This document shows, piece by piece, positions 2,231 to 53,728 of a stretch of 64,000 nt of DNA. Numbering within the stretch: position 1 is the first letter of the stretch; each line of letters opens with the position of its first letter. Source of the DNA: Eledone cirrhosa (taxonomy: Eukaryota); contig OZ024742.1 in NCBI GenBank assembly GCA_964016885.1, positions 307,272,001-307,336,000 on the forward strand, written 5' to 3'. The translations under genes were made by a program, and so were the position numbers. Under the pieces are notes generated by a model. That model ran no database searches. It saw only the letters and a program-made list of their open reading frames with translations, and was not told the origin of the DNA.

Positions 2231-2297
<67 letters not shown>

Positions 2298-2338
2298 TTC
2301 AAATATTAACAAAATAGATATTCTTGTGATCAATTAAA

Positions 2339-2401
2339 TTTTATTATACATATTTCAGAGGTACTGAATCAAGTTCAACAGTACGTCCTCATCAGATAAA
2401 A
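2339..2401 (-). ncRNA. Hammerhead ribozyme motif (family B, left arm)
   Basis: Minus strand TTTTAT-CTGATGA-GGACGTACTG...CAGTACCTCT-GAAA-TATGTATA-ATAAAA. Confidence 0.8.
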
Positions 2402-2518
2402 TAAAATGATACATGACATACCCTGCATGTTAGATGGTTAAGATTTAATCAAGGTAGATTAATACCTTAATTAAATCTTAACCATCTAACATGTCAGAGT
2501 ATGTCATGTATCATTTTA

Positions 2519-2581
2519 TTTTATCTGATGAAGACGTACTGTTGAACTTGATTCAGTACCTCTGAAATATGTATAATAAAA
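2519..2581 (+). ncRNA. Hammerhead ribozyme motif (family B, right arm)
   Basis: TTTTAT-CTGATGA(2525-2531)-AGACGTACTG...CAGTACCTCT-GAAA(2564-2567)-TATGTATA-ATAAAA; predicted AUA cleavage triplet. Confidence 0.8.
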
Positions 2582-2718
2582 TTTAATTGATCACAAGAAT
2601 ATCTATTTTGTTAATATTTGAATTAATATTAATAACTCTGGAAAATAACCGCTGTAAAGTGCTTCCAATCTACTGTAAAACTCATTCTTTGATGTACTCA
2701 TTGAATCTTGTTTAACTC

Positions 2719-2754
<36 letters not shown>

Positions 2755-3385: not shown

Positions 3386-3422
<37 letters not shown>

Positions 3423-3518
3423 GGTAGTACACTGGAAGGTAATATCCGAAGTGGTAGAGCACTCAATCCATGGGACGAGTTAGGTAGAAGTGGTTACACA
3501 ACAGTTAGTTTACCATAC

Positions 3519-3556
3519 CGAGAACAATTGTTTCACCTTGGCGGATCCTCAGCTCG
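3519..3556 (-). ncRNA. Minimal hammerhead ribozyme (family D, left arm)
   Basis: Reverse complement of 3616-3653 with one substitution in loop II. Confidence 0.75.
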
Positions 3557-3615
3557 TTATGGACAAGGTTATACGGAACAGGAAGGTTTCCTGTTCCGTA
3601 TAACCTTGTCCATTA

Positions 3616-3653
3616 CGAGCTGAGGATCCGCTAAGGTGAAACAATTGTTCTCG
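3616..3653 (+). ncRNA. Minimal hammerhead ribozyme (family D, right arm)
   Basis: CGAG-CTGAGGA-TCCGCTAAGGT-GAAA-CAATTG-TT-CTCG; palindromic stem III ACAATTGT; GUU triplet. Confidence 0.75.
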
Positions 3654-3682
3654 GTATGGTGAACTAACTGTTGTGTAACCAC

Positions 3683-3740
<58 letters not shown>

Positions 3741-3745
<5 letters not shown>

Positions 3746-3952
3746 AACAAGTATGATCCCGACGGCAGAGCTCAAGCCGTTTCGACGACTAATTCTCCTG
3801 AGAATTAGCCGTCGAAACGGCTTGAGCTCTGCCGTCGGGGTCATACTTGTTCCTATTACCCACTCTACTACCCTAAGTATTGAGTACTTTGGTGCGTTAT
3901 GGTCCAGATGGACCATAACGCACCAAAGTCCTTATCACATTTCCTTCGTTTT
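3741..3952. mobile_element. Palindromic mini-PLE (family E): arms 3741-3856; tail contains a second hairpin at 3886-3929
   Basis: Arms match the terminal repeat of the Naiad-type PLE at 38971-41311 and the palindrome at 44472-44578. Confidence 0.85.
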
Positions 3953-4312: not shown

Positions 4313-6368
4313 TAGACATGCGCTATCCCGTCCAGGTCCATCCATGACAACCTCCACCTCATGCGATACATCATAGAGAGGGTTGGGAACGAACCCGGCT
4401 TTGGTGGGGCTCTGATCAACTTGGATCAATCTAAGGCGTTCGATAGGGTCGACCATGGTTACCTGGATGCGGTGCTAGCGGCGGCAGGCTTCGGACCCGT
4501 TTTCAGGGGCTGGATCACTGCTATGCACAGCAGCCGCATCTGCTCTAGGGTCAAGGTGAGCGGCTACCTCTCGGAGCCGTTCAAAATCGCGCGGTCCATC
4601 CGACAAGGGTGCCCTCTCTCCTCCCTTCTGTATGTGTTGACTCTCGAGCCACTACTGCGGAAGTTGGAGTTGTTGCAGGGCATCCCTTTGGAACCGGGAT
4701 TGCGGAAAGCGGTGTCAGCCTACGCCGATGATGTGACAGTAATGGTGTCGACGGCCTCCGAAATCGAGGCGGTCGGCACCTTACTGGAGGAGTACGAAAA
4801 GTTCACAGGGGCTAAGCTGAACCGGGACAAGTCGATCGGTTTGCAACTCGGCACGTGGAGGGGCAGACCGATGCCCTCTGATGGCGTCGTCGGACGCTGG
4901 ACGGAGGGCCCGGTGAAGTTGCTCGGGGTCTGGTTCGGACCGGACCTCCAGGTGGAGAAAAACTGGGCGGAGGTTACGAACAGGGTGTTTGCACTGACCC
5001 AGAAGTGGGCCAGTTGCAAACTATCCCTGAAAGGTCGGGCGGAGGTGGCGAACACTTATATAGCGTCCGTCATCTACTACCGCCTGACCGTAGTGCCCTG
5101 CCCAAGGGAAACCCTCACCAAGATGGAGCGCGCGCTCTTCTAATTCCTTTGGAAGGGGCGGGCTCCTATGGTGAGGAGATCCATCTGCTGTCAACACCCT
5201 TCGAAAGGAGGGCTGGGGATGCCGTGGCTAATGATGCGTAAACACGCATTAAGGCTACGGCACCTCTACGTATTCCTCACCGGACAACCGGTGTGGGCCC
5301 CGTTTGTGAGACGAACCTTTCCCAGACTCGTCTCACTCACCGAACTGCAATCCTGGGTCAAGCAGAGACCGAGAAAACTGGGCGCCTGGCACACTGAGTG
5401 TGCCCAGGCGCTCACCGCCCTCTGGCAGGCGGATCCGGTTATCAGTGGAGACTCCACCGCAACATTCTATAGAGGGCTGGTACGCAGCAGGTGCGACGAC
5501 GCCCTCGGAGAAGCCCTAGACATGGAGGAGGACGAACTGGCCAGCCTGTTCGGTAGGACATTCAGCCCGGGACCTATGGACAACTTCCAGAAGTCCCTGG
5601 CCTGGCAGTGCTACCGAGGGGCTTCACCCGTTCGAGAAAGGCTCTACAGACACGGGCGCCCGGGTAGGGACCCCGCCAAAAAGATCTGTCCCAGATGCGT
5701 GTGCGACGAGGAAACCGTTGCACACGCATTGGTACACTGCTCGGGCGTAGCCGATCTGTGGGGCTATGTCGAACAACTGCTGTCAAGGGTGGGACCGATC
5801 CGGTTGACCACCGAGTCTATTGTAATGATCAAGCCGCCTCCCCCCTTCAAAGATGAAGCAGAGGCGGTGTTTCTGTGCGTAATAGCCATGGCGAAAGAGG
5901 TTGTATGGTGGACGCGTCTGAAAGGACTGAGGTCGGGCGCCTTTCTCTCTGGCCAACAACTGGTCCGTTTCTTCCGATATCATTTCGGAAGAAGGATCAG
6001 GATGGAGAGAGAGGTGCTGCACCCCAGTCGTTTTTATGAAAGGTGGGTGAAAGTGGCGAGAATGGCCCGTGTGAATGGGCCTTCTCTTTACATAAGCCTG
6101 TAGGTGGAAAAGAGGAAGGAACGAGGGAGCACCCCCTCTCTGTGCTCCTGAGGAAAAGGGTTGCACACTTTTTTCGGGGGTGTGTGCGACCCCCCAAGGC
6201 GCCTCCTCTCTATTGAGGATTTTGTTAAAAATTTTATTTTTTGTTATATCTTATTTTATTTTTATATTTTGTTATTGCCTCCTCCTTATTGAGGACGCCT
6301 TTTTGTGTAAACTCCCCCCTTTGTACTTGTCCCACTTTTGATGCCCTAGTGGCAAATAAAAGAAACTT
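4313..6368 (+). mobile_element. 5'-truncated L1/Tx1-clade LINE: RT, CCHC zinc knuckle and 3' UTR
   Basis: LDQSKAFDRVDH, RQGCPLS, AYADD, GGLG, CPRC...HALVHC; a single in-frame TAA at 5141-5143; AATAAA at 6355; inserted in (TA)n/(TATC)n. Confidence 0.9.
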
Positions 6369-22778: not shown

Positions 22779-22833
<55 letters not shown>

Positions 22834-22837
<4 letters not shown>

Positions 22838-24218
22838 AAATACGTCCCTCATCAGTGATTTGCCGAAGATCATAGATATTTCATTGCATTAAAAATCATA
22901 TATCTCACTTCGGTACGATAATAACCAAAATAAGTTATTAGGACAATTAAAACGCGTAAAGCGAGTGAGACAGGAGAACAACAGAAAAGATAGTATAACG
23001 TTGGAGAGAAACAAGCTTCAAAAATTATTCTGTTAGCGTAAGCTAGGTGAATATATGAGCGCTAGGGAAAGAATAGTCCAGCACGAACGAAGGCCATTGA
23101 GCAGAGAGATCATATAGATTTTTAATGCAATGAAATATCTATGATCTTCGGCAAATCACTGATGAGGGACGTATTTTATTACATGTTACCATGTGCTACC
23201 TGCAGTATTTTTCTCTATATTTTAATACATATATTTACCACTGCGATTCTGTGTTTTTTTCTCTCTCTCTTACTGTTCCCCCATTCTCTCTGTTTCTCCC
23301 CCTCTGTCTTGTCCGTTAACTCTTCCTCACACTTTCACTCACTCACTGTTTTTCTCCCTCTTCTCTTCATTTCATCCTGCACTCACGGACGCTATTTTTT
23401 CTCTCTCTGCTCAATGGCCTTCGTTCGTGCTGGACTATTCTTTCCCTAGCGCTCATATATTCACCTAGCTTACGCTAACAGAATAATTTTTGAAGCTTGT
23501 TTCTCTCCCACGGTATGCTATCTTTTCTGTTGTTCTCCTGTCTCACTCGCTTTACGCGTTTTAATTGTCCTAATAACTTATTTTGGTTATTATTGCACCG
23601 AAGTGAGATATATGATTTTTAATGCAATGAAATATCTATGATCTTCGGCAAATCACTGATGAGGGACGTATTTTATTACATGTTACCATGTGCTACCTGC
23701 AGTATTTTTCTCTATATTTTAATACATATATTTACCACTGCGATTCTGTGTTTTTTTCTCTCTCTCTTACTGTTCCCCCATTCTCTCTGTTTCTCCCCCT
23801 CTGTCTTGTCCGTTAACTCTTCCTCACACTTTCACTCACTCACTGTTTTTCTCCCTCTTCTCTTCATTTCATCCTGCACTCACGGACGTTATTTTTTCTC
23901 TCTCTGCTCAATGGCCTTCGTTCGTGCTGGACTATTCTTTCCCTAGCGCTCATATATTCACCTAGCTTACGCTAACAGAATAATTTTTGAAGCTTGTTTC
24001 TCTCCCACGGTATGCTATCTTTTCTGTTGTTCTCCTGTCTCACTCGCTTTACGCGTTTTAATTGTCCTAATAACTTATTTTGGTTATTATTGCACCGAAG
24101 TGAGATATATGATTTTTAATGCAATGAAATATCTATGATCTTCGGCAAATCACTGATGAGGGACGTATTTTATTACATGTTACCATGTGCTACCTGCAGT
24201 ATTTTTCTCTATATTTTA

Positions 24219-24225
<7 letters not shown>
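22834..24225 (+). mobile_element. 497-bp tandem non-coding element (family F): inverted partial copy 22834-23108, then about 2.2 tandem units, flanked by (TA)n
   Basis: Identical 102-aa pseudo-ORFs 497 bp apart (23141 and 23638); third start at about 24135; left block is the reverse complement of about 23400-23677. Confidence 0.85.
23124..23175 (+). ncRNA. Candidate permuted (type II-like) hammerhead in each family F unit (also 23629-23662, 24126-24159; minus 22849-22882)
   Basis: GAAA-TATC-TA-TGAT-CTTCGG-CAA-ATCA-CTGATGA-GGG; stem I capped by a cUUCGg tetraloop; stem II pairing weak. Confidence 0.45.
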
Positions 24226-24250
<25 letters not shown>

Positions 24251-25319: not shown

Positions 25320-25788
25320 ATACAATATCGGAGAAAGCTTTTTAGCGATACTCCGGCCAAATTCCAACTCACTCAACAAACATTAGGAAATAAGTGATTA
25401 TATTCCCAATTATACGTTCGGGGTGCTAACTAAAAGTATTGCGTGGAAAATTGGCTGTATTATTTCATATGAGACATATCTAATATATCTCTTCCCAGAC
25501 GGACGTCTCGTTTCATTATAGGATTCCTACAATTTGGGTGAAATTATACCAATTTATGTAGGAGCTGTATACCATCAATAGATATATATTCAAGTGGGCT
25601 CCTATAATTCATCAGTGGGTGCCCCAATAATACTAATATTGATAATCTAACCAACATCAGTATTTAGCGATAATCACCATCCTCTATGCCTGAGGTATCT
25701 GTCAGGTTGCCAGTCCAGCAGTTTTAAAGAAGTGCTCAAACTGATTAAAAAAATGAGGAAGTAAATTACCGCCAAAAAAACAATACAT

Positions 25789-25819
<31 letters not shown>

Positions 25820-25823
<4 letters not shown>

Positions 25824-27220
25824 AGCGGGTGGTGAGATCACGAATAACCCACTTTCTTGAAAGCAACGGCCTGCTGAACTCCAACCAACATGGATTCCGT
25901 AATGGAAGGGACTGCCTAACGCAGCTCCTGCATCACTTTGACGATGTTTTGAGAGCCTTGGGAGAGGGCTCCAACACTGATGTCATCTACCTTGATTTCA
26001 GCAAGGCCTTTGATCATAAGATTCTACTGAAAAAACTATCTAATGTTGGTGTCTCTGGAAGGTTACTACAGTGGATCAAATGTTTCCTGACAGGCAGAAA
26101 CCAGCATGTTGTAGTCGAAGGAGTAAAATCAAGCCCTGCCAATGTCAACAGTGGCGTCCCACAAGGCACTGTGTTGGCACACTTCTTTTCATCATCTACA
26201 TTAATGACATTACTGACATCATCAAACACAGTAACATCAGAATCTTCGCTGATGATTCCAAGCACCAAAGGGTCATCAATGAGGTGGGTGACCGGACTTG
26301 CCTTCAGTCAGACCTACTGGCTGTTATCCAATGCGCAGAGATGAATAATATGCTGTTGAATGAGGATAAATTTGAACTAATCCACTTTGGAAAAAAGGAT
26401 GCCCTGAAACTACCATACTCTCTTCCTTCGGGTGAAACTCTAGTGGCTTCCAATAACATCAGAGACTTGGGAGTAATTGTGGACAACAATATAAGCTGGG
26501 CCACTCATATAAACAGCAAAGTTGATATGGCCCGCAGAATGTGTTCCTGGATTCTCAGAACTTTCCAGTCGAGAGATATCCACACTGTTGTCCTGCTCTT
26601 CTCCACTTTTGCCCGACTCCACCTTGAATACTGTTGTCCACTGTGGTCACCCCACACGAAACAAAGTATCATGAAAGTTGAAGCACCCCAAAGGTCAATT
26701 ACAAAAAAGATAGTTGGCATGATAGGCCTTGACTATTGGGGTCGATTAGAAAAGCTCAAACTTTATTCTCTTCAACGTCGCCGTGAGCGCTACATTATCT
26801 GTATGATGTGGAAAATATTCCATCAGCTTAGCCCAAATGATGCTGGCATCACCTTTAGTGTACACCCAAGGCTTGGGGCCCGTGCTATCCACCCACGACA
26901 AAAATCCCTCTCGCATCACATAACAACAATACGGCACAATTATTTCACCTCAATTGGCCCTGCACTCTTTAACATTACACCAAAACACATCAAAGCAGAG
27001 ACAGACCCCATCAAGTTCAAGAAGTCTTTGGATAAATTCCTTCAAGAAATCCCGGATAAGCCTCCTACACCCGGATATGCCTCCGTAAACAATAACTCTC
27101 TGCTCGAGTGGGCCATGGTGCCCAAACACTGATTTGTAAGACTTCGCCAGGTGGTGCTATTAAGTTAGACATGGCCTGGGCCAATACTGGCTGAAACCTA
27201 TCAAAGTTATCAAAGTTATA
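25820..27220 (+). mobile_element. 5'-truncated CR1-group LINE RT with a frameshift, inserted in (TA)n
   Basis: QHGFRNGRDC, YLDFSKAFD, SGVPQGTVL, IFADD, DLGVIVD, LEYCCPLWSPH, YSLQRRRER; tandem 3' tail TATCAAAGT. Confidence 0.9.
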
Positions 27221-27745: not shown

Positions 27746-28478
27746 CAGAGATTCTCATAACCTTTTGGGCCACCACGCCTTTCTCACGGCCACGTAATAC
27801 TCTCTATTTTCAGAGAGACCTGCCTACATGCAAATTGTAAATAATATATAATAAATAAAACCGTTAATCTATATAGCATGAATAATATAATGTATTGTTA
27901 TGTTGCCAATAATAACACACGCACTTGTTGGTTTTCACTTCAATTTATTATAAGTTTCCGGTTGGTTGGCTGGTTCGATAACCGGAAGGTTGTTTATATA
28001 TTGCCAAAGCTCTTTCGTTACACATTCTGTGACCTCCTCAGTGACTAGGTTTTTATTTTGTGTGTCTCTCCTTTGTTCTGTCCTCCAGCATCTACAATAA
28101 AGAGCTTTGACAATATATAAACAATCTTCCGGTTATCGAACCAACCGACCAACCGGAAATTTATAATAAATTGAAGTGAAAACCGACAGGTGGGTGTGTT
28201 TTTATTGGCAACACGACCCTCCCAAAGTATAACAATATTTGTTTCAACACACGTTTTCAGATAAGAAATCTCGCAAAACAAATTCAAAAACGAATATAAT
28301 ATATACTATGTATAAATAAATAATATATATATATTTTTTAAATTTTACTATATTTATATATAATATGTATCATTTGATATTTAATATACTACTATATTAT
28401 CTCTACCCCCACCACATCCTTAGGTTCCAGTGTCCCCTGGACATTCTCAACGTCCCCTTCCCACATTGAGAACCTCTG
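27746..28478. mobile_element. hAT (Charlie-like) MITE inserted in a SINE
   Basis: TIRs CAGAGATTCTCA / TGAGAACCTCTG; TSD CCTTAACC / TCTTAACA; SINE sequence resumes on both sides. Confidence 0.65.
27901..28238. mobile_element. Inverted-repeat HHR mini-PLE (family G): arms 27901-28015 and 28099-28213, short tail; HHR on minus strand at 28003-28045
   Basis: Minus strand GTCA-CTGAGGA-GGTCACAGAATGTGTAAC-GAAA-GAGC-TT-TGGC; tail GACCCTCCCAAAGTATAAC resembles 48183-48203; related copy at 42975-43085. Confidence 0.7.
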
Positions 28479-31593: not shown

Positions 31594-32650
31594 TCAATGG
31601 GACCCTTGAACTTTATGGAGTCTAGCTAACTCTTTGACGCCAGGCTGGATTTTCGTAAGATGTAGCCGGTGATCTCCACATGTAATTACATTGTAGCGGT
31701 TGCGAGCCTTACTGTGCAGTCTGGAAACAGCACCAAACCTCCTCTTGACTAAGTATGAGCTTGGAAAAGGCAGAGAAAATCTCTTAGCCTCTGCATATAG
31801 GTGTGGAAATCGACGCTGAATTTCCTCTTGTATCCAAAAAAGGGGTTCACCTATTTTGGGAAATCTAATTTTGATCATGTCATCTGCTTGAAGTTCAATG
31901 AATTCTTTCTGAAATATAACGTCCAAATCATCAACGTTAGCTATGAAGGGATATGCTACCCACATTGGGATGTCCATCGGCAAAAGGTCGACAAACAGTT
32001 CTCCCATGTTGTCTTGTAGCGCACGGAAGCGAGCGGTATAAATCTGGAGTTGGTCATCGCTTACAATGTTTTGAACATTGGCGACACTAGGAAAATTATA
32101 AAATTCCCGTCCACAAAGATTCCTTTCGATGACATTCAATTTGGCCAGGAATGTTTTTCACAGCATTCCTTGCTTTAACCAAGGTGATCTTCTTCCCCTG
32201 CAAAGCCAAAATGACGCTATTGCATTTGTCGACGATGTCGGTGAGGTAGGCGCAGTTTTGCCTCACATCGAGGGTTTTCTTGTACAATTCTGTGTTGCGT
32301 CCTTGCAGAAACTCAATGATAGAGACGAACAGTTCAAAGAAGTGAGTAAGGCACTTGCCCTTTGAAAGCCACCTCACTTCATTATGAAGGAGAAACTTGA
32401 CAAATTCTTCGTCATTATCTTGGCACAGTTGCCGGAAAATTCGTTCATTGAGGGAATGCCGTTTGATAAAATTGATGACATCAAGGGCCACCTGCAAGGA
32501 CTTGCTCAGCGGCTTGCTGAGTTTCTTCGCAGCCAAGTGTTGTCGATGAATGACACAATGAACAACAAATACAGATAGATTTTCTCTCTTCAGAAGAGTG
32601 ACGAAACCCTTATGTTGGCCGACCATTGCTATTGCGTCGTCCGTAGCACA
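31594..32650 (-). pseudogene. hAT transposase C-terminal half (Charlie/Buster family), frameshifted near 32130
   Basis: TDDAIAMVG, HCVIHRQHLAAK, EVRWLSKG, FPSSYLV, ending GSH. Confidence 0.85.
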
Positions 32651-32654
32651 TGAT

Positions 32655-33180
32655 ACAATGTGTGTTGTATTTGGTCCTAGATGTATATATTACCTGCATG
32701 TGTGTTGTAGGTAGTCCTAGATGTATGTATTACCTGCTTATGTATTGCATGTGGTCCCAGCTGTATGTATTACCTGCTTGTGTGTTGTATGTGGTCCTAG
32801 ATGTGTGTATTACCTCCTTATGTGTTGTATGTAGTCCTAGATGTATGTATTACCTGATTATGTGTTGTATGTGGTCCTAGATGTGTGTATTACCTGATTA
32901 TGTGTTGTATGTGGTCCTAAATGTATGTATTACCTGCTTGTGTGTTGTATGTGTCCTAGATGTGTGTATTACCTGCTTATGTGTTGTATGTGGTCCTAGA
33001 TGTATGTATTACCTGATTATGTGTTGTATGTGGTCCTAGATGTTTGTATTACCTGATTATGTGTTGTATGTGGTCCTAGATGTTTGTATTACCTGCTTAT
33101 GTGTTGTATGTGGTCTTAAATGTATATATTACCTGCTTGTGTGTTGTGTGTGGTCCTAGATGTGTGTGCTACCCGCTTCT
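32655..33180. repeat. 40-bp minisatellite, about 13 copies, inside the hAT element
   Basis: Unit TGTGTTGTATGTGGTCCTAGATGTATGTATTACCTGCTTA. Confidence 0.9.
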
Positions 33181-38297: not shown

Positions 38298-38820
38298 TAA
38301 ATGTACCAAAATATACCGTAGTGTCCAATCCGATGAAGAACTCAATGTAATCCAAATATCATGAAAAGAGAAGATGCATTCAAAAATTTTCGATGAAAAT
38401 CATTGGAAAACAGAGTCAAGATAAATTAATAAAAACAATGAAATAAAAACAAAGAACAAGTTCCTTATATAAAAAAATTCATCATTTTACGATCGTTTCT
38501 AGGATGTATATGTGTGTTGGTATGTATATCATATAGATCTATGTAAAAATATTACAAATTATCAGAGGAAATATATATACCTTCACATATACATGCTGCC
38601 TTCAGAAATGAAGACAGTATGTATATGTGAAGGTATGTATATTTCCTCTGATAATTTGTAATATTTTTACATAGATCTATATGATATACATACCAACACA
38701 CATATACATCCTAGAAACGATCGTAAAATGATGAATTTTTTAATATAAGGAACTTGTTCTGAATTTTTTAATATAAGCAACTTGTTCTTTGTTTTTATTT
38801 CATTGTTTTTATTAATTTAT
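38298..38820. mobile_element. Palindromic HHR element (family I): arms 38421-38820, tail 38298-38420; long-stem-II HHR on minus strand at 38484-38609
   Basis: About 190-bp inverted arms; GAAA-CGATCG-TA; related solo copy at 41561-41770. Confidence 0.8.
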
Positions 38821-38970: not shown

Positions 38971-38975
<5 letters not shown>

Positions 38976-41310
38976 AAAAAGTATGACCCTGACGGCAGAG
39001 CTCAAGCCGTTTCGACGGCTACTTCTGGACTAAATTAGAATTTTTAGCCTGGTGAATAAATAGCCGGACTTGTCAAGGGGGTACTTCCTTATATGGGAAG
39101 ATTGTAGTTGTCAAGAGGATTGGTTAAAATTTGTTGTAAACACAAATAAGTCTATCATGGCATTTTGGTGGGAGGTAGGGGTGGCTGAACTTGCCTGTAG
39201 AACAATAGGGGAGTGACAGGAGCGGTCAAGCGTTGAAAGTGATATGTATACAGCAGATTCTAAGGATAGTGTATGAAGTGGAGGAGGGAGGTTATAGAAT
39301 AGGTAAATCGAATGAGAGTAGGAGACAATAAAAGATAATAGAAATAAATAAAAAATATATAAAATTAGATAGTAAGAAATGAATAAAAAAAATTACAATG
39401 CTATCTTACAATTAGAGGTTAATAAGTTGAGAATAGAAAAAACTTGTAGAAATTGAGTAGTAACAAAACTGATACAAATTAAGGGGTTTAACACATCTGC
39501 TATAAGTAGTTAGTAAAACGTAATCGGCCAATTCTATCTTAAAATTACAGGGGTGGGGGAACTGATGCTACAGAGGCCCGATGGGCTGCATCGGGGTAGG
39601 CGAAAGGGGAAGAAAATAGGGGGTGGAAGGAAGTGATAGGATGAGACAGGGGGAAGAAGAAGACAAAGAGGAAAAGAAAAGAGATACATCTACCTATGTA
39701 AGCTGAGGTTTCCGCTAACTTATTCGGCAAGTGTGTGTGAGTGGGGGGGGGGTATCAGCCTTTGTCTAGCCACCCGGGTCGTTATGGGGTTTGAGGGTGA
39801 GGTAAGTCCTACGCAATCTGTGTTTGCATGCAGTTACCAGTTCGTCTTTCTTGTTTAGGAGTTGGTCCTTCGAAAACGGTACTTGTAATGTTTCCTCCGA
39901 GCATAAGTTACACGGACGGCGTCCTCCCGCGTAAGAGTTAGCTCTGGACAGTAAGCTCCAAGTGAGATTTTAGGTTATATTATTATCTTGGAGGTCCCAG
40001 ATGTGGCCCGAAAGAGTAGTGGCATGTCGCCGGAACGGGTTTCGGAAAGTATGTCGGTGTTGGTAGAGCCGGATCTTGAAGTAACACGCGGTTAATCCTA
40101 TATAAGCTTTGTTGGAGGTGTCCGTCCTCGCGTTGCACTGGTAGATCACGTTACGTTCTCGGCATTTGTTGTTGAGGGGGCACGTAGATCTATCAGGGCA
40201 GTTACACCTCCTGGTCGGCTCTCCACTGATGTCTAGGTTATTTCTTCCATAGGGGTTAAGTTTTTTTGTTGTTTGAGGAGACGATGTTTTGTGCGAAGCT
40301 TGGTGTGGTGCTGTAGTAGAGTTTGATGGTGTTTTTGTTGAATATGTTGTGGTAGCGGTGTTGTAGTGGGAAGTGTTTTTCGAGGAGTCTAAAGAAGACT
40401 TTCCCGATAGGTGTTGCCACCTCGGCATTATGGGGAGGATTGAACCACGTTACGTTGCGTTAGCGGCGGTGTCGCCTGCTGGTTCCGCTAAGGGAAACTG
40501 AATAAAAGGATATTTCCTCTCGGAAGCCACTTCGCTTGAGGACCTGGTTGTAATGAGGCGCGTGTTCGTCGAATATCTGCTCATTAGCGGACAAACGAGA
40601 TATGCGGAGGAAGATGTTTTTAACCAGGTTATTTGTGATGTTTCTAGGATGGTTAGAGCGGCGGTGGATGTAGTGCAGGTTGTCCTTTGGTTTCCTGTTT
40701 GGGTAGTACAGATCAATTTCGAGGTTAAGGGTAACGTCCAGGAAATTGACTCGGGTTAGGGACGTTTGTAGGGTGATTTTAAATCCCCAGTCCCGGAAGA
40801 AGTTGATTAGTTGTTTACGGACCCGGTCTGTACTACTGGGGTTGTACTCTTTGAGAGCGAGGAGCCCAGCATGCCGGTACAATCTACCGCCGAATGCAGG
40901 AAACATTTCGGTGAGTTTAAATAGTAGGAATAATCCAATAAGATCTGTGATCTCGGCCGAATCCGTCGCGCCTATACTGACCGCTCCACTCTCCCCCTAT
41001 TGTTCTACAGGCAAGTTCAGCCACCCCTACCTCCCACCAAATGCCATGATAGACTTATTTGTGTTTACAACAAATTTGAACCAATCCTCTTGACAACTAC
41101 AATCTTCCCATATAAGGAAGTACCCCCTTGACAAGTTCGGCTATTTATTCACCAGGCTAAACATTCTAATTTAGTCCAGAAATAGCCGTCGAAAGGGCTT
41201 GAGCTCTGCCGTCGGGGTCATACTTTTTCCCATTTCCCACTCTACTACCCTAAGTATTGAGTACTCTGGTGCGTTATGGTCCATCTGGTTCCTTACCACA
41301 ATTCCTTTGT

Positions 41311-41311
<1 letters not shown>
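38971..41311 (-). mobile_element. 5'-truncated Naiad-type Penelope-like element with inverted pseudo-LTRs (38971-39228 and 40978-41233) and tail 41234-41311
   Basis: RT LYRHAG (decayed YRDD), VNFLDVTLNL, SNHP; CNCPDRSTCPLNNKC; VIYQC...YIGLT (GIY-YIG); CNLC...CKHR; flanked by (TA)n. Confidence 0.9.
38986..39082 (-). ncRNA. Hammerhead ribozyme, U3-A8 core variant (family E); mirror copy on plus strand at 41122-41218
   Basis: ACCCCC-TTGACAA-GTCCGGCTA...TAGCCGTC-GAAA-CGGC TTGAGCTCT GCCG-TC-(A/G)GGGT; GUC triplet. Confidence 0.7.
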
Positions 41312-41343
<32 letters not shown>

Positions 41344-44392: not shown

Positions 44393-44395
<3 letters not shown>

Positions 44396-44575
44396 CGAAT
44401 GAATTGTGGTAAGGAACCAGATGGACCATAACGCACTAGAGTACTCAATACTTAGGGTAGTAGAGTAGGTAATAGGAAAAGGTATGACCCCGACGGCAGA
44501 GCTCAAGCCGTTTCGACGGCTATTTATGGACCGTCGAAACGGCTTGAGCTCTGCTGTCGGGGTCATACCTTTTCC

Positions 44576-44578
<3 letters not shown>
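44393..44578. mobile_element. Family E palindromic mini-PLE: arms 44472-44578, tail 44393-44471
   Basis: Same arms and tail as 3741-3952 and 41180-41311; flanked by (TA)n. Confidence 0.85.
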
Positions 44579-44956: not shown

Positions 44957-47900
44957 TTGAGTTCGTCTGTGTCGACGTCGCAGAACTCCAGCTCACTCTC
45001 AATGCGAGTAACAATAACAACAACAACCACAGTGGTAATAATAGAAATAATACATGTAGCAACATTAATGATAGACACAGCAACAACAACAACAAAAACA
45101 AGAAACATAATAAAAGTAACAACCACAATGGTAGAAATAACAGTAACAACAACAATAACGGTGGAGAAAACAACAACAATACATCTAACAATCACAGCAA
45201 CAATACATCTAGCAATCATAACAATAATAATAATGTTAATGATAGGAACAACAACAACCACCATAATAACAATAATAGCAACACACACAACTATGACGAT
45301 GGATATAATGACAATCCCTTAGAGAAACTATTCTTCAATCCAGCTGACAAAACATATAAGATGGGTAATATCTATCCTACGAGGTTACCCTTTAATAAAA
45401 GGGTTTGTATACCACAACAAATAGATGACGAGACAGAGGCACAGTTCACCATAGCTAGAAATAAGATTAGACAAAGAGTAGACCGGTATACTAAGAGACA
45501 AAGCAGACCAGAGGTCCAACAACTTGGGAGGAAACCTGTAGAAGGCTTGGTTAGCCTCAAGCAGCGCACAAGGGATGGTGAGGTAGTATGTCTACCCACT
45601 GATAAATCTGGTAGGATGTCAATAGACAGCATGCCGAACTACATCAAGGCTATGAAACCCCACATCACCAATACGAGCGAAATTGCATAGCAAATACATG
45701 ATGGGAGAGAGAAAATCCTCAACGCTCACATGATGATGTGGACCGACATCCTAAAGCCAAGCAGATGCACTGCCAACAACTTCCAGGCGTCTAACAATGG
45801 CATACCACCCTTGTATGGACTCCGCAAAGACCATAAGACAGTCGACGACCCGACAACAGGACCACCAACAAGACCTGTATGTGGAGCAAATATAGCTAGC
45901 AACTACAGGTCCTCCTACTTCCTCTCAATGGTTATACGCCCCATAATCAAGATGTCCCCATAGGTATGTGACAGTACAGAGGACCTCCTCAGCAGAATCA
46001 GTGAGTACAACAAAAACAAAAACCTATGCAACTGCATAATAGGCAGTATGGATGTGGTATCACCGTACCCATCCATTAACATTGATTTTGCTGCTGTGGA
46101 AAAATGTGTGGAGATGATCATTGAGAATGAGGTGGAGTTCTGCGACGTCGACACAGACGAACTGGGCCTCCTACTTAGACTTACCTATGACACTGACTAC
46201 CCAGACAGCCATGACCATAGACGTTTCTGCCCCAGTAGACCCAGAAGAGGTAGACCCCCCCCCCCCCCACCATAACCTCAATGTCAAAAAAGACTCCCAT
46301 GGGAAGGTGGATTGGGTGTACCAAAGCTATACGGACCCCCCCAAAACAATGATCAGGTAAGAAAAATGGTCGCACATGCAATATGGGATAGTATCAAAAC
46401 TACCCTAAAGGGCCACATATTCAAATTCAACGAGAAGATCTACACCCAAAATGAAGGAGCAGCCATTGGCGTCAGCATAGCTGGTGACGTTGCCAAACTT
46501 TTTATGGTATGGTGGGAAAGGAGACTCAAAGATCTCCTTGATGAGAGCTCCATAGACCTCATCATGTACTCTCGTTACGTAGATGACATCAATATAGTAA
46601 TAAGAACACCCCCACTAGAGAGTACTAACAAGTTTGATTTAGAACGTAGCACAATGGAAAGCATCCAGCAGATAGCTAATTCCATACACCAGAGTATAAC
46701 TGTAACTATCGACTACCCTTCCAAACACCCTAACAATAGACTGCGTGTATTAGACATGGAACTCTGGATTAACACTATAGAAAAGAGAGCCCAAATTCTC
46801 CACTCACACTACGCTAAACCCATGGCCTCCAAATACCTGATACTCAAAACCTCAGCAATGTCCAGTAGTGCTAAGTTTAATATTCTGATCGCAGACTTGG
46901 TACGAGTGATGAAGAACGTGTCCCGCATGTGCGACCCAACAGAAATGGAATGAAACATCCAACACTTCATCAACCGCATGCAGTTCTCTGGCTACAACCA
47001 AAGAGCCAGAATAAGAGTATACGAAGGAGCCACGGAGAAGTATAAGACCCTCATAGAACTGGACATGAAAGGAATTTGCCCATTATACAGGAGCAAATCA
47101 TGGAATAGTTTAGATAGGACTAGATATAAGATAGGGAAAGCCACCTCATGGTACGATAATCAGAGATACCAGAGTGTCATGTTTGTGGACGCTACCCCTG
47201 GAGGAAAATTAGCTAACCAGTGTAGAAAGGCCCTGACAAAGACCCATTAAACATTAAGGTGGTAGAAAAGCCAGGAACCACCATAAAATCCCTGATCAGC
47301 AAAACCTACCCTTTTAAGAAAACCCACTGTACTAATAGGAAATGTATTAGATGTAAAATAAAACCCCGGATAAACTGTAAAACTAGAAACGTAGTCTATA
47401 GCATAAGATGTACAGAGGGTACTTTCAGAAACATGACAACAACATACATAGGCGAGACAGCTCGTAGCATAGGTGAAAGGATAGACCAACACTGGGGAGA
47501 ACTAAAAGGACGAAAAATGGTTCAGTACTATACGAACATGCCAGACAACAACACGACGGTAACATAGACAACATAGAAATTAGAATAATATCTAAACATA
47601 GAAATGACCCAGCAGATAGGCAAATCAGAGAGGCCAGCGAAATAGAACTTAGAAGGCCAAGGCTAAACAAAAAAAAATGAATGAAATAACAACAACACCC
47701 AAACAAACAATACTGACCTAAGAGAAGTATAAATAAATACATACACAAGCACAATAACAACAAACACATATAAACACACACTAGTAAACTAAGATAGAAT
47801 ACAATAACCAATACACAGTCACCCAAACACGAACACACATCAAACACTATACACACGCGCAAACGCATGCGTAGAGAAGACAAAAATAAATAAATAAATA

Positions 47901-48197
47901 GATAAACAGACTAAATAAAGATGGCGTAGGCATACAATACAACAGGAGGAAACATAATAGCACCACTGACGATGTTGCAGATGTGCAAAGAAAGAACTTT
48001 GTTAGACTATATATATGTGTTTGTGTCTATATTATATCTGTATTTTTGACCGTTGGTCAGTCAATGGTAACATTGAGGACCGAATAAATTAAATTAACCG
48101 ATATAAAAGACACAGAAGCGAAAACCAACCAAACAGTGAATGTGTTCTGTTATTAATTCTGGCAATATTATTACACAAATATGACCCTCCCCAAGTA

Positions 48198-48203
<6 letters not shown>
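44957..48203 (+). mobile_element. Near full-length decayed Penelope-like element: RT, Cys knuckle, GIY-YIG and 3' repeat with HHR
   Basis: PTDKSGR, PPLYGLRKDHK, PTRPVC, SMDVVSPYPSI, QNEGAAIG, YSRYVDD, VLDMEL, CTNRKCIRC...C, VVYSIRC...YIGETARS; multiple stops and frameshifts. Confidence 0.9.
47961..48003 (+). ncRNA. Hammerhead motif in the PLE 3' repeat (weak stem I)
   Basis: CA-CTGACGA-TGTTGCA GATG TGCAAA-GAAA-GAAC-TT-TG. Confidence 0.6.
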
Positions 48204-48235
<32 letters not shown>

Positions 48236-48359
48236 CACACACACACATATATGTGTATACATGTGAGTTTAAACACACACACACACACATATATACATAT
48301 ATGTGTGTGTGTATACATGTGGGTTTACACACACATACACACGCACATATATATATACA

Positions 48360-49295
48360 TAATATCATAAACCCTACCACTATAAGACTGTCATACTCTA
48401 CAGCGTTAAACCTCGAACAACACATAAAAAAGATCAATACTAGAAGGTTAAACGAAAACACTAAAAACTTAAGTACAAAGAACACAAAAAAAACAGTAGA
48501 CAATACACTACAGAACATAAATAAACCACACCTAAGTTCGTCCGCAATACTACTCCAGAGTAAACCTAACTACAAAACCAACGTACACAACTGTAACTGC
48601 ACCTATCCTGACAATTGCCCCCTCGGCAATAACTGCCTGGAAAAAAATATCATCTATATGTGTACCATTGAATCCGGAGGCAACGAGTGGTATTACGTGG
48701 GATCAACGGCAACATCGTTTAAATCTCGATTATATAGGCATTCTTACTCAATAAAACACCAGAGCCAAAGAAATGTAACAACTTTAGCAGAAAAAGCTTG
48801 GACGCTCAGGGATAGCGATCAAAAGTTTACCCTAAAATGGGAGAAATTAGCTAAAGCCCAAAGCTTTTCCAGGAGCCAAAATTTCTGCAAATTGTGTAAT
48901 CTTGAGATTTATTACATAATCACACACAAGAAGAAATTGCTTAATAACAGAATTGAACGAACATTATTCTGCCGCCACCGAACTAAAACCCTTTTTTCCC
49001 ACTACAAGCTGAATATTACATAAAGAGGGACATCCCCCCAACTATATAAACCTCAATCTAGTTAGAAAAATATAAAAACAATCTCTTCTCAACATATATA
49101 TGTATATTAATAAAATTAAATTACCACACTAATAATGGAAAGATATGCTGATGAGAATAGGTGCGAATATGCTATAATGAATGTGTCTAAAAGCGACCAT
49201 ATGTATGTATATATGTGAAAATGTATATAAATAAGTAAATATATATATATGTTTGATGTGTATAGTTAGATGTATGTGTATTCATGTATTAAAGT

Positions 49296-50191: not shown

Positions 50192-53100
50192 AGGATGTTT
50201 ATACATGCATAACTCCACGCAATTATTTGCATGTAGAAAAAAAAATTACATGGGCATCTGATGATTGAAAGTTGCCAAAGAATGTGTATTTCAATGGGAA
50301 GTTCGCTGCTTCACTACACCATGACTAAGTAATCTATATTACTATCACCCTTCTCTTTATAACTCACAACCATTTATTTGGATTCACCTGGTGCTGAAAA
50401 GTAATAACAATTACATCAACAATAATGATGAGTGTGCCCATCGGAAAAATATTGTTTTTTTATAACATTGCATACGAAGCTATTTATTGGAAATGGTTAT
50501 ATTTATATAAAACAATTGCATGGCAAATCTTTGTAAGAACCTTTGTTCAATTATGTTCAACACACCAAATATATGACACGAATTTGTTATTTTACTAAAT
50601 CCCTCCAAAGTCTGAAAATTATAAGTAGTGTCTTTCCCAAGAAACATGGGAACGAAAGGATTAATGAATTTTGTGATTCTCTATTAGAATTTTGTGATTC
50701 TTTATTATTGTCAATAACTACATATCTGATACACCTTACTGACTATGATGTTGTCACAAAGAAATACTCCAAAGAAACAACGAAACAACGGCAGTAATGA
50801 AAGACATTTTAAAAAGAAAATATAGAGATACAGAAACAGTCCTAGCTTTACACACATAATAAGAAACTGTCCATTACTGACTATTGAACCTTATATGTAC
50901 AATTGAAGAAATTCGATGTTTTTCCAGACCTATGGCTTCAGACTTCACCAGACTTAGTTACATAAGACAACCGAATCTAGAATTGTTACGAAAACTTCAA
51001 AGCGGTTACAACTACTTCCTAATTCGTAAACACGACTATTATTATATAAGCCAAAAGCAACAAATGTGTGCCAAAGCGAAATTAAATTGTTGTGGCCGTC
51101 TCTTGTAAGAGCAAGAACCATATTGTCAGAGGAGTGTTGCGTTGTCTTTTTTGTCCCTCCTCAAACTAGACGGGCTGTTTCTGCGGGAGATGAACAGGAA
51201 AGCGAATAATTGCGTGGGATTTGTCAGGCATTTTGAATTCAAGCAATCTCCACATTCTTTCTGGAGCACTCACATATCTGGCATCTAGAAAATTCTTGAT
51301 TTCATCATGAATTATGACTTGCTGTCAGTTGCTTCGCTGATGTTTACAGTTATGGAATCATAGCCTTTGTATATGTATTTATACACATATTTCACTGAGT
51401 GGATGAAGGCGCAAATTTCTAGATTGACGTGGCAGTTGATATTTGTTATAAGGTACAACATATCGGTTGTCTACTACTTTCGGACAACGTTCAATGTTGA
51501 ACTCGGACGTCTTCTGGGGGATAGATAACTATCTCGGGTTTTAAAGGTTTTCTGTTGAAATTGTTTGGGAAAGTCTTTTGAGCAGTTGTTATTTTCCATG
51601 CATGGCGCGTTAGAGTTTTTCTCTCCCAGTGCATTACTGGTACTTTATTTTATCGACCCCGTAAGAATGAAAGGCAAAGCTAACCTCGGTGGGATTTGAA
51701 CTCAGAACGTATAGGGCCGTAACTCTATTCTGTAACTTTATGCAACACTATTATTAATAATAAAAGTTACTATAGTTATGATGAGTGCCGTTGTATTAGG
51801 ATTGTTCCTTGTTGGACAAGTAATTTCGCCAACGAAGTCAACTGACTATAAATTGCTTGTCTAGTTTGAGGAGGGACAAAAAAGACAAGTGCTAGAAAGA
51901 GCTGCGCAACGCAACACTCCTCTGACAATATGGTTCTTGCAAAATGATGAAAATGCAAGACGATATCTATATGTAGACAACCCTTATTATCTCTACAAAA
52001 CCCAGCAGATTTTTCTTCTTAGATGGCTCTGGTAGTACAGGAAAAATGTACCTCTACAGTACCTTGATATCGCATTTGAGTCGTCAAGGAAAGAGTGTTC
52101 TCTCATTTGCTACAACAGGCATTGTGGCTGATCTATTGCACCAAGAAAGAACTGTACACAGTGGCTGATCTATTGCACCAAGAAAGAACTGTACACAGTG
52201 GCTTTAATCTCCCAGTCCCTATCTTGGAAAACTCTACATCACCAACGAAGATTCCATCACAGCGCTCTGAAACATTAAAATTAGCTGACCTAATAATAAT
52301 TGATGAGGCATCAATGCTTTCAGGAAATGCATTGAGTTGCTTTGATCTACTGCTAAAGGAAATAATTGTTTCTACTTTTGGCAGAAGGCCAGCAATTACC
52401 CAGTGTATTACTGGTACTTTATTTTATCGACCCGGTAAGGATGAAAGGCAAAGTTAACCTCGGTGGGATTTGAACTCAGAATGGCAAGGGCCGTAACTCT
52501 ATGCGTCAAAGCATGGTGTCCGACCCTCTACCGATACTGCCAATCCATCGCCATTGCTAAAGGAAATAATTGTTTCTACTTTTGGCACAAGGCCAGCAAT
52601 TACCCAGTACATTACTGGTACTTTATTTTATCGACCCCGTAAGGATGAAAGGCAAAAGAAATAATGAACTGCCATAAGCCTTTCGGCGGTAAGGTTCTCT
52701 TTCTTGGAGTGACTTTAGGTAAACTGCGCCGGTTATTCTGAGAGGGTCAAATGCTGCTATAATTGAATCTTCTACCAAATATTCTCCTCTGTGGACAGAT
52801 GTGACAATTTTTACTTTAACTGAGAATATGCGAATAAATGGACAAGAAGAATTCACCGCATGGCTTCTTAGCATAGGAAATGGAACAGTCACTAATGATG
52901 TCGGCTTAGATGAAGATCTAATAAAAATACGTGAAACCATGATTTCATCTGGAAATTTGATAAGAGACATATTTGGCGACGACATTTCTGTAGTAAGTAT
53001 CGGAGATATTGATGAAACTTCAACAAAAATTATTTACTAAAAGATAAAGATTCAATCGAACTGAATATCAAGATATCACTTCTAGATATAGACTTACAGA

Positions 53101-53728
53101 TATATGAAAGTGTTGATGTGCTGGTTGACGAAAGTGCCGAGAATATCATGAATTATCCGGAAGAGTATTTGAATTATCTGATGCCGTTAGGCATGCCCCC
53201 ATATAATCTAGCACCGAAGAAAAATTCCATTGTGATGTTGCTGAGAGATTTGGATCCTGCTAATGGCTTGCTGAATAGTACTCGATTTTTGGTTTTATTT
53301 TCTAATGAATCTTATATTCATGTAATAATCATTACTGACAGTAAAAAAGGAAATGAAGCTTATATACCACGTCCGAGTGAAACAGATCTACCCTTCAATA
53401 TGAGTAGACTGCAGTTCCCTGTGATACCAACTTTTGCCATGACCATAAACAAATCACAAGGACAGAGCCTCAAAAAAAGTTGGTATTTACTTGCCACCTT
53501 CCATAGTCAGTCATGGCCAGCTTTATGTGGCCTTAAGTTGTACAAGAAGGAAGGAAAACTTAAAAATTCTTTTGAAGGAAACAAGCAGTCAAGGCACATT
53601 AGTTGTAGAAACTTTTCACAAAAACATTTGTAATAAAAGAATTATTAAACTAAAAACTTGGTTTTGTACCCTTTTTATATATAAAATACTACAATTAACG
53701 TCATTTTTGACGGCACGGAGCCAGCTAG
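50190..53728 (+). mobile_element. Decayed, rearranged Helitron (5' boundary uncertain)
   Basis: PIF1 motifs DGSGSTGK, IIIDEASM, PFGGK, LTENMR, RLQFPV..FAMTINKSQGQSL, SHGQLYVALS; 3' end GGCACGGAGCC hairpin followed by CTAG|T; Rep-like segment inverted at about 51100-51625. Confidence 0.8.
52367..52657 (-). mobile_element. Full SINE plus a truncated tandem copy inserted in the Helitron helicase
   Basis: TSD TGCTAAAGGAAATAAT repeated; helicase frame resumes as EIMNCHKPFGGK. Confidence 0.85.

What the first reader, a model, noticed from the sequence alone, without database searches (positions are those of the whole stretch)
3741..3952. Family E mini-palindromes are cut-down ends of the Naiad PLE at 38971-41311
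Seen: 3741-3952 and 44393-44578 have the same arm end (ATAGGAA.A.GTATGA) and the same tail as the 2.3-kb PLE, but fold back after only about 55 bp, inside stem II of the ribozyme, so UUGACAA is lost. The first copy has a second fold-back in its tail (3886-3929). Inference: three independent insertions with a fixed arm/tail boundary and a variable turn-back point give a natural series showing how inverted pseudo-LTRs arise (fixed initiation site followed by fold-back synthesis).
Basis: partly seen in the sequence, partly recalled or inferred. Interest (0 to 1): 0.7.

Follow-up and report, generated by a model that had tools for sequence, protein, structure and literature searches.

The report
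Twin run-off stubs of Penelope retroelement
These short mirror-image repeats are back-to-back end pieces of a very common Penelope-type jumping gene, and both halves stop at the same spot, likely the capped start of the element's RNA, which suggests the mirror is made by two copying reactions that run off one RNA rather than by one copy folding back.

Summary
The two minis are real, independent 5'-truncated insertions of the element at 38971-41313. That element is a Hydra-clade PLE (C-terminal GIY-YIG), not a Naiad. The family has over 12,000 tail copies; 66 of 91 sampled copies are short head-to-head pairs. Their 3' ends are fixed (pLTR end, tail end) and 56 of 65 axes differ, so it is no clonal MITE. 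But the turn-back is not freely variable: both arms pile up at 59-60 nt with a hard edge, on the A of an initiator-consensus match, often with an extra G. A second family (28,076 arms) stops 30 nt behind a TATA box. Fold-back cannot explain copies whose tail-less arm is longer. Best reading (0.7): both target ends prime on a capped RNA, at the two internal start sites known from the anole PLE; both cDNAs run off its 5' end and are end-joined. Short snap-backs occur at junctions. Against: no RNA data, mixed cap-G signal, 6 of 9 full-length copies pass the edge. The layout is published, and this scan noted it before elsewhere in this genome; I did not find the run-off reading in print.

The parts
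3741..3796 (-). Mini 1, tail-less arm (pLTR 0 to -55), 3' end in a (TA)n tract
3797..3800 (.). Mini 1, 4-nt filler at the axis, not templated by the family reference
3801..3856 (+). Mini 1, tail-bearing arm (-55 to 0): 3' half of the hammerhead only
3857..3952 (+). Mini 1, tail (first 80 nt of the element body) with an inserted inverted piece
3886..3929 (.). Private palindrome in the tail, likely a local template switch at a natural 3-bp inverted repeat
   Evidence: 1 of about 156 tails; mechanism inferred
44394..44471 (-). Mini 2, tail
44472..44531 (-). Mini 2, tail-bearing arm, ends at -59 (the family edge)
44531..44578 (+). Mini 2, tail-less arm, ends at -47, 1-nt overlap at the axis
38971..40977 (-). 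Long copy, tail-less arm of 2008 nt: frameshifted RT 3' part, CxCx5C linker, GIY-YIG, 3' UTR, pLTR
40978..41233 (+). Long copy, inverted tail-bearing arm of about 255 nt with the complete hammerhead motif
41128..41134 (+). Hammerhead core UUGACAA (U3-A8 variant); predicted cut between 41213 and 41214
   Evidence: variant described in PMC4209133; cleavage untested
41142..41149 (+). TATA-like box at -31 from the edge; 5 of 8 consensus matches, overlaps stem II
   Evidence: function inferred
41171..41177 (+). Initiator-consensus match (YYANWYY); its A (41173, position -60) is where arms stop; inferred transcription start
41234..41313 (+). Long copy, tail: start of the element body, ends in TAT like the pLTR end

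Best explanation
The minis are dead-end insertions of a Hydra-clade Penelope-like retroelement, likely made when both ends of a cut (TA)n target prime reverse transcription near the 5' end of a capped element RNA, one at the pLTR end and one at the tail end, and both cDNAs run off that RNA's start about 60 nt upstream and are then joined head to head. Shown: two fixed 3' ends, both ending in TAT; one tail per insertion; a hard inner edge at -59/-60 on either arm and on solo arms; variable, end-joining-like axes; arms that share subfamily variants. Inferred: that the edge is the transcription start (initiator match, TATA spacing, extra G); that both cDNAs usually come from one RNA, the tail-primed one displacing the other; that joining is by host repair, sometimes through a short snap-back. 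Long inverted copies would arise the same way from templates that reach further upstream (3' pLTR, read-through or circular RNA). The ribozyme core is lost because the start site lies inside the ribozyme.
For: Edge: 157 arms from 91 tail-selected copies: 28 end before -50, 55 at -50..-58, 51 at -59/-60, 13 at -61..-70, 10 beyond. The A at -60 is A+1 of a YYANWYY match (consensus from PMC4581360); 13 such sites in 483 nt. A TATA-like box lies 31 nt upstream in 43 of 50 read-through arms. G precedes -60 in 19 of 37 unselected arms but precedes -59 in 3 of 25 (p=0.0025); genome-wide G 1242, C 375, A 202 after a non-T base. An extra G marks capped 5' ends in L1 insertions (PMC11702581). Independent family K: of 55 arms 20 read through; of the other 35, 32 end at +1..+10 (16 at +1/+2), 2 at 0 (ambiguous overlap), 1 at -5; TATA box 30 nt upstream in 17 of 22 read-through arms; C (cap copy) follows +1 in 12 of 20 arms. 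One tail plus one tail-less arm in 62 of 64 arm-selected pairs. Arms share subfamily variants (site -12: both 12, one arm 2) while CpG decay is not shared (site -37: both 0, one arm 12). In long copies the partner arm is 229 nt or more in 15 of 17. Only 3 of 157 arms end near the ribozyme cut, as expected if uncut RNA is the template (PMC11167929), which also shows two internal start sites and extension of both target strands.
Against: No RNA evidence for the start site was obtained. The G signal is mixed: 20 of 30 sampled G junctions could take the G from the partner arm; among free junctions G 9, C 8; arms joined to TATA show G 20, C 29, A 7 (counted by eye; p=7e-5 against flank background, p=0.19 against window background); after T, C outnumbers G 19 to 11 in 30 loci. 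C at -61 is templated in some subfamilies (2 of 50), which explains only part of it. In family K about half of the C cases can come from the partner arm. Six of 9 full-length copies pass -60 of the upstream pLTR without a mark; one stops at -56. The family E TATA-like box matches 5 of 8 and sits in stem II, so its conservation may be structural. Family F (window 3421-3687) shows graded arm ends, no TATA and no clear edge in 30 copies. Shared variants and correlated arm lengths fit fold-back equally well. Samples come from the start of one contig.
Confidence: 0.7

Rival explanations
1. Two separately primed cDNAs, but the edge is a roadblock (ribozyme stem II refolding or bound protein), not the RNA 5' end.
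For: The stop lies in the inner stem-II hairpin; full-length copies pass it seamlessly; the G signal is mixed.
Against: The inner stem is weak and the stronger stems are passed first; family K has a different fold position yet stops 30 nt behind a TATA box; G is specific to -60 versus -59.
Confidence: 0.13
2. First reader's model, close to the self-priming idea of Arkhipova et al. 2013: one cDNA starts at the tail, folds back and copies itself; the second end at the pLTR boundary is set by a cut or stop.
For: Arms share subfamily variants and have correlated lengths; short snap-back pieces exist (L305, L308, L310, L287); recurrent junctions fit 3-6-nt hairpin loops.
Against: Tail-less arm longer than tail arm in the window element, L122, L129, L032, L065, L101, L111 and in 15 versus 4 minis; snap-back-type junctions mostly sit on the tail-less arm while the partner has the tail; 2 nt or more of overlap at only 5 of 65 axes, fillers at 36; L179 has arms of two subfamilies; both outer ends finish in TAT like priming sites. 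Later asymmetric deletion at the axis could rescue some cases.
Confidence: 0.1
3. Minis are long inverted copies shortened later by deletion of the palindrome centre.
For: Long inverted repeats are deletion-prone (general knowledge); internal deletions occur in some tail arms.
Against: Deletion would not give a single-base edge on both arms and on solo arms, at an initiator match, in two families.
Confidence: 0.04
4. One clonal MITE-like family with a fixed axis.
For: Narrow size range; a few junctions recur (up to 3 of 65).
Against: 56 distinct axes in 65 copies; the recurrent junction occurs in different subfamilies; the same subfamily variants occur in long copies.
Confidence: 0.02

Closest known systems
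Hydra-clade PLEs (Craig et al. 2021, PMC8557442; read: passages, sections 6, 11, 15, part 2 of the supplement)
   Same: C-terminal GIY-YIG, DKT, RW(R), CxCx5C linker, CxxC and CxH, hammerhead in pLTR, (TA)n target, inverted 5'-truncated copy with one-sided tail.
   Different: Unit is 3.1 kb (theirs mostly under 3 kb); tail 80 nt (theirs 30-40); U3-A8 core, unlike the listed Hydra-1_Obim motif; the sections read give no arm-length edge and ascribe tail and inversion to endonuclease cleavage.
PAc Poseidon PLE of Anolis (Frangieh et al. 2024, PMC11167929; read: parts 1-2 of 4)
   Same: Two adjacent internal RT start sites bounding the tail; both target strands cut and extended; uncut RNA used; product length set by the RNA 5' end in vitro.
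   Different: That work does not explain the inverted copy or name a run-off product in genomes; here both sites appear to be used once each per insertion.
Adineta vaga Penelope palindromes (Arkhipova et al. 2013, PMC3846280; read: passages)
   Same: Head-to-head pLTRs, tail on one, TATA and Inr-like motifs inside the pLTR.
   Different: Interpreted there as self-priming on an antisense template; here the junctions fit two sense-templated cDNAs.
L1 twin priming and cap-derived G (PMC11702581; read: passages)
   Same: Second target end primes a second cDNA; inversion junction resolved by end joining; extra G at capped 5' ends.
   Different: In L1 the two cDNAs cover adjacent, non-overlapping RNA and the second site floats; here both sites are fixed and the cDNAs overlap, giving a palindrome.
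Retroviral minus-strand strong-stop DNA (recalled, no call)
   Same: Priming near the 5' end of the RNA gives a short run-off cDNA.
   Different: No tRNA primer or RNase H; the run-off products are integrated as they are; a strand transfer was not shown here.

Membership tests
Naiad PLE | GIY-YIG endonuclease N-terminal to RT | tested here: not met
   Endonuclease motifs follow RT in the 767-codon frame of the family reference and in the window copy
Naiad PLE | No canonical hammerhead; DKA motif | tested here: not met
   Type I hammerhead motif in pLTR; motif is DKT; definitions
Hydra PLE | Single ORF, C-terminal GIY-YIG, CxCx5C linker | tested here: met
   Pfam gave no significant hit on the two window fragments, so this rests on motifs
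Hydra PLE | DKT and RWK motifs; CxxC and CxH in EN; no CCHH | tested here: met
   DKT, RWR (one conservative change), CNLC, CKH; only one Cys inside the GIY-YIG core
Hydra PLE | Hammerhead in pLTR and (TA)n insertion | tested here: met
   Core invariant except N7 in 34 of 44 read-through arms; TA flanks. Rfam gave no hammerhead among the 150 hits listed; cleavage not tested
Hydra PLE | Placement in the Hydra clade on an RT tree | not tested
   Reference proteins were not available as session sequences
EN+ PLE insertion layout | Inverted 5'-truncated copy, one-sided tail equal to the start of the body | tested here: met
MITE | Clonal copies with a fixed interior | tested here: not met
   56 distinct axes in 65 copies
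Non-LTR retrozyme | Tandem units each with a complete hammerhead | tested here: not met
   Minis are inverted pairs lacking the core; definition from bioRxiv 10.64898/2026.07.22.740005 part 1
Pol II core promoter | Capped transcripts start at the initiator A | not testable with these tools
   Motif match and spacing only

The most novel reading that the evidence does not exclude
PLEs copy the way this series shows: one RNP primes both target ends at two fixed internal sites on one RNA, so every insertion is born as a head-to-head pair. On a capped RNA starting in the pLTR this yields a retrovirus-like strong-stop pair, the commonest product; only a jump to the RNA 3' end or a circular or read-through template gives a live copy. 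The tens of thousands of stubs are then a base-precise fossil map of PLE transcription starts, family by family.
Probability: 0.45. Interest if true: 0.75.

Novelty: new variant of a known kind. Interest (0 to 1): 0.58.

Why it matters
How PLEs make their inverted pLTRs and one-sided tail is stated as open in the papers read (PMC8557442 section 15; PMC11167929). This series ties the in vitro two-site initiation to the genomic palindrome, argues against self-priming, and gives single-base predictions (start at -60 in family E, +1 in family K) that one 5'-end mapping experiment can test. It also suggests that many short palindromes in (TA)n tracts of such genomes are failed insertions, not MITEs, microRNA hairpins or ribozyme switches. 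The element itself is an ordinary new Hydra-type family.

Tried and rejected
Rfam returned only sub-threshold hairpin matches. Pfam gave nothing significant on the two ORF fragments. A ribozyme-cut template was considered: only 3 of 157 arms end at -18..-21. A constant sum of arm lengths in long copies was looked for by eye and not seen. A jump scar at -60 in six full-length copies was looked for and not seen. DPE/MTE matches downstream of -60 were checked by eye against and are only partial; not claimed. A test on the 2291-2722 family failed because the motif was private (1 match). The first family K count had a faulty pattern and was redone; the 2x2 test printed used rough counts and is not used. 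Rows dropped: L056 (tandem array) before one search counts, L096 (mis-paired) before one search counts; long tail-less partners beyond about 330 nt are missing from the 157-arm histogram; one search lists two double-tailed copies twice. [quoted passage not shown]

Full report
Observation. Both minis match the arm and tail of the element at 38971-41313 at 89-95%. I count positions from the pLTR 3' end (0 = 41233). Mini 1 has two 56-nt arms, a 4-nt filler and a tail; mini 2 has a 60-nt tail arm and a 48-nt tail-less arm. Both lack the hammerhead core at -105..-99. The palindrome inside the tail of mini 1 is real but private, 1 of about 156 tails; it starts at a natural 3-bp inverted repeat and is likely a local template switch unrelated to the main axis.

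The parent. Eight long genomic copies give a 3118-nt unit with a 767-codon open frame. The endonuclease follows the RT; DKT, RWR, CxCx5C, CxxC and CxH are present and CCHH is not. These are the Hydra features in Craig et al. 2021; Naiads have the opposite order and no hammerhead. The tail is the first 80 nt of the body after the upstream pLTR. The hammerhead is type I with a U3-A8 core, a variant known from Schistosoma; N7 is the position that varies. Earlier scan notes call this genome an octopus; I did not test that.

The series. A 28-nt tail motif has 12,346 exact matches. I took 92 of the first 100 listed places and dropped one tandem array. Of 91 copies, 66 have a short inverted partner. 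Outer ends are fixed: 149 alignment ends at 0 and 150 at the tail end, both finishing in TAT against a TA target. Axes vary: 56 distinct in 65 copies; 12 blunt, 12 with 1-nt overlap, 5 with 2 nt or more, 36 with fillers. This refutes a clonal MITE and looks like end joining.

The edge. Inner ends are not random. Of 157 arms, 55 end at -50..-58, 51 at -59/-60, 13 at -61..-70 and 10 beyond. Tail arms, tail-less arms and solo arms joined straight to host DNA all show it. The A at -60 is the +1 of a YYANWYY initiator match, with a weak TATA-like box 31 nt upstream; 13 such matches lie in 483 nt, so the coincidence alone is modest. The template base at -61 is T, yet G stands there in 19 of 37 unselected arms against 3 of 25 before -59. 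An extra G is the mark of a copied cap in L1. The signal is not clean: much of the genome-wide excess (1242 G, 375 C, 202 A) can be read from the partner arm, C is nearly as common in free junctions, and the TATA-joined test is significant against one background only.

An independent test. Mining the fetched loci for other palindromes gave family K, 28,076 arm matches, with the same arm-plus-tail layout. Its short arms end at or just inside an A that lies 30 nt behind a near-perfect TATA box and within a YYANWYY match: 32 of 35 short arms at +1..+10, 16 of them at +1/+2, one clearly upstream. C follows +1 in 12 of 20 arms, about half of them free of partner sequence. There +1 is also the first base of ribozyme stem I, and arms run past the cut site, so uncut RNA is the template, as in the anole element. 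Family F, next to mini 1, shows no such edge in 30 copies. D. virilis Penelope also starts transcription inside its pLTR (PMC2377424, passages).

Fold-back or two cDNAs. Fold-back must start from the tail arm, so that arm should never be the shorter. It is shorter by 1750 nt in the window element, in L122 and L129, in four unbiased long copies and in 15 versus 4 minis. Yet the arms are not independent: one tail and one tail-less arm in 62 of 64 pairs, shared subfamily variants but unshared CpG decay, and long paired with long in 15 of 17. One RNA used twice, once from each start site, accounts for all of this; rare discordant pairs such as L179 point to two RNAs. Short snap-back does occur: solo arms in L305 and L308 carry an 11-17-nt inverted copy of themselves, and the commonest junctions fit 3-6-nt loops. 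Such a piece would give the homology that joins the two cDNAs.

What is unexplained. Six of nine full-length copies run through -60 of their upstream pLTR without a mark, and one stops at -56. They need a template that reaches further upstream (read-through or circle) or a seamless homology-guided jump. L094, with two jumps from -63 to +193, shows that jumping from the edge can happen, but it is one case.

Verdict. A real feature; an ordinary new Hydra-type family; a published layout, noted several times by this scan, including a first-reader guess of an initiator at arm starts. What is added is a quantitative case that the mirror is two run-off cDNAs ending at the RNA start. I did not find this in the searches. 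Confidence 0.7, interest 0.58.

Noticed in passing
window 3421-3687: Family F: another arm-plus-tail palindrome with a canonical hammerhead core on both arms, sharing the TA tract with mini 1; 52 exact tail matches; graded arm ends, about a third long.
   Followed up: partly
window 2291-2722: 170-bp-arm palindrome with hammerhead-like core and a roughly 90-nt tail; 13 relatives among fetched loci.
   Followed up: partly
window 22830-24230: Inverted 280-nt arm plus tandem units of about 497 nt, each with a hammerhead-like core; retrozyme-like or PLE partial tandem.
   Followed up: no
window 27901-28213 and 38421-38820: Further imperfect palindromes; the first belongs to a family of 8 among fetched loci.
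   Followed up: no
L312-L381 (family K): Very abundant arm-plus-tail family, 28,076 arm matches, TATA box 30 nt upstream of the arm edge, transcription start predicted at the first base of ribozyme stem I.
   Followed up: yes
L094 739-1465: Three head-to-tail passes to -63, two restarting at +193; L140 has a jump to +199. Possible short RNA 3' end or jump acceptor near +195.
   Followed up: partly
L056: Tandem array of a 58-nt unit holding part of the family E tail.
   Followed up: no
L034, L038, L060, L062, L083: Internal deletions confined to the tail-bearing arm; may reflect the second RT skipping the first RNA-cDNA hybrid.
   Followed up: no
window 48157-49023 (+): Open frame with a CxCx5C linker and GIY-YIG-like motif: remnant of another Hydra-type element.
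   Followed up: no
window 46276-46953 (+): RT fragment of PLE type from a different lineage.
   Followed up: no
window 4316-6103, 25757-27132, 31594-32689, 53016-53633: Fragments resembling two non-LTR RTs, a hAT-type transposase and a Helitron-type helicase (names recalled from motifs, not tested).
   Followed up: no
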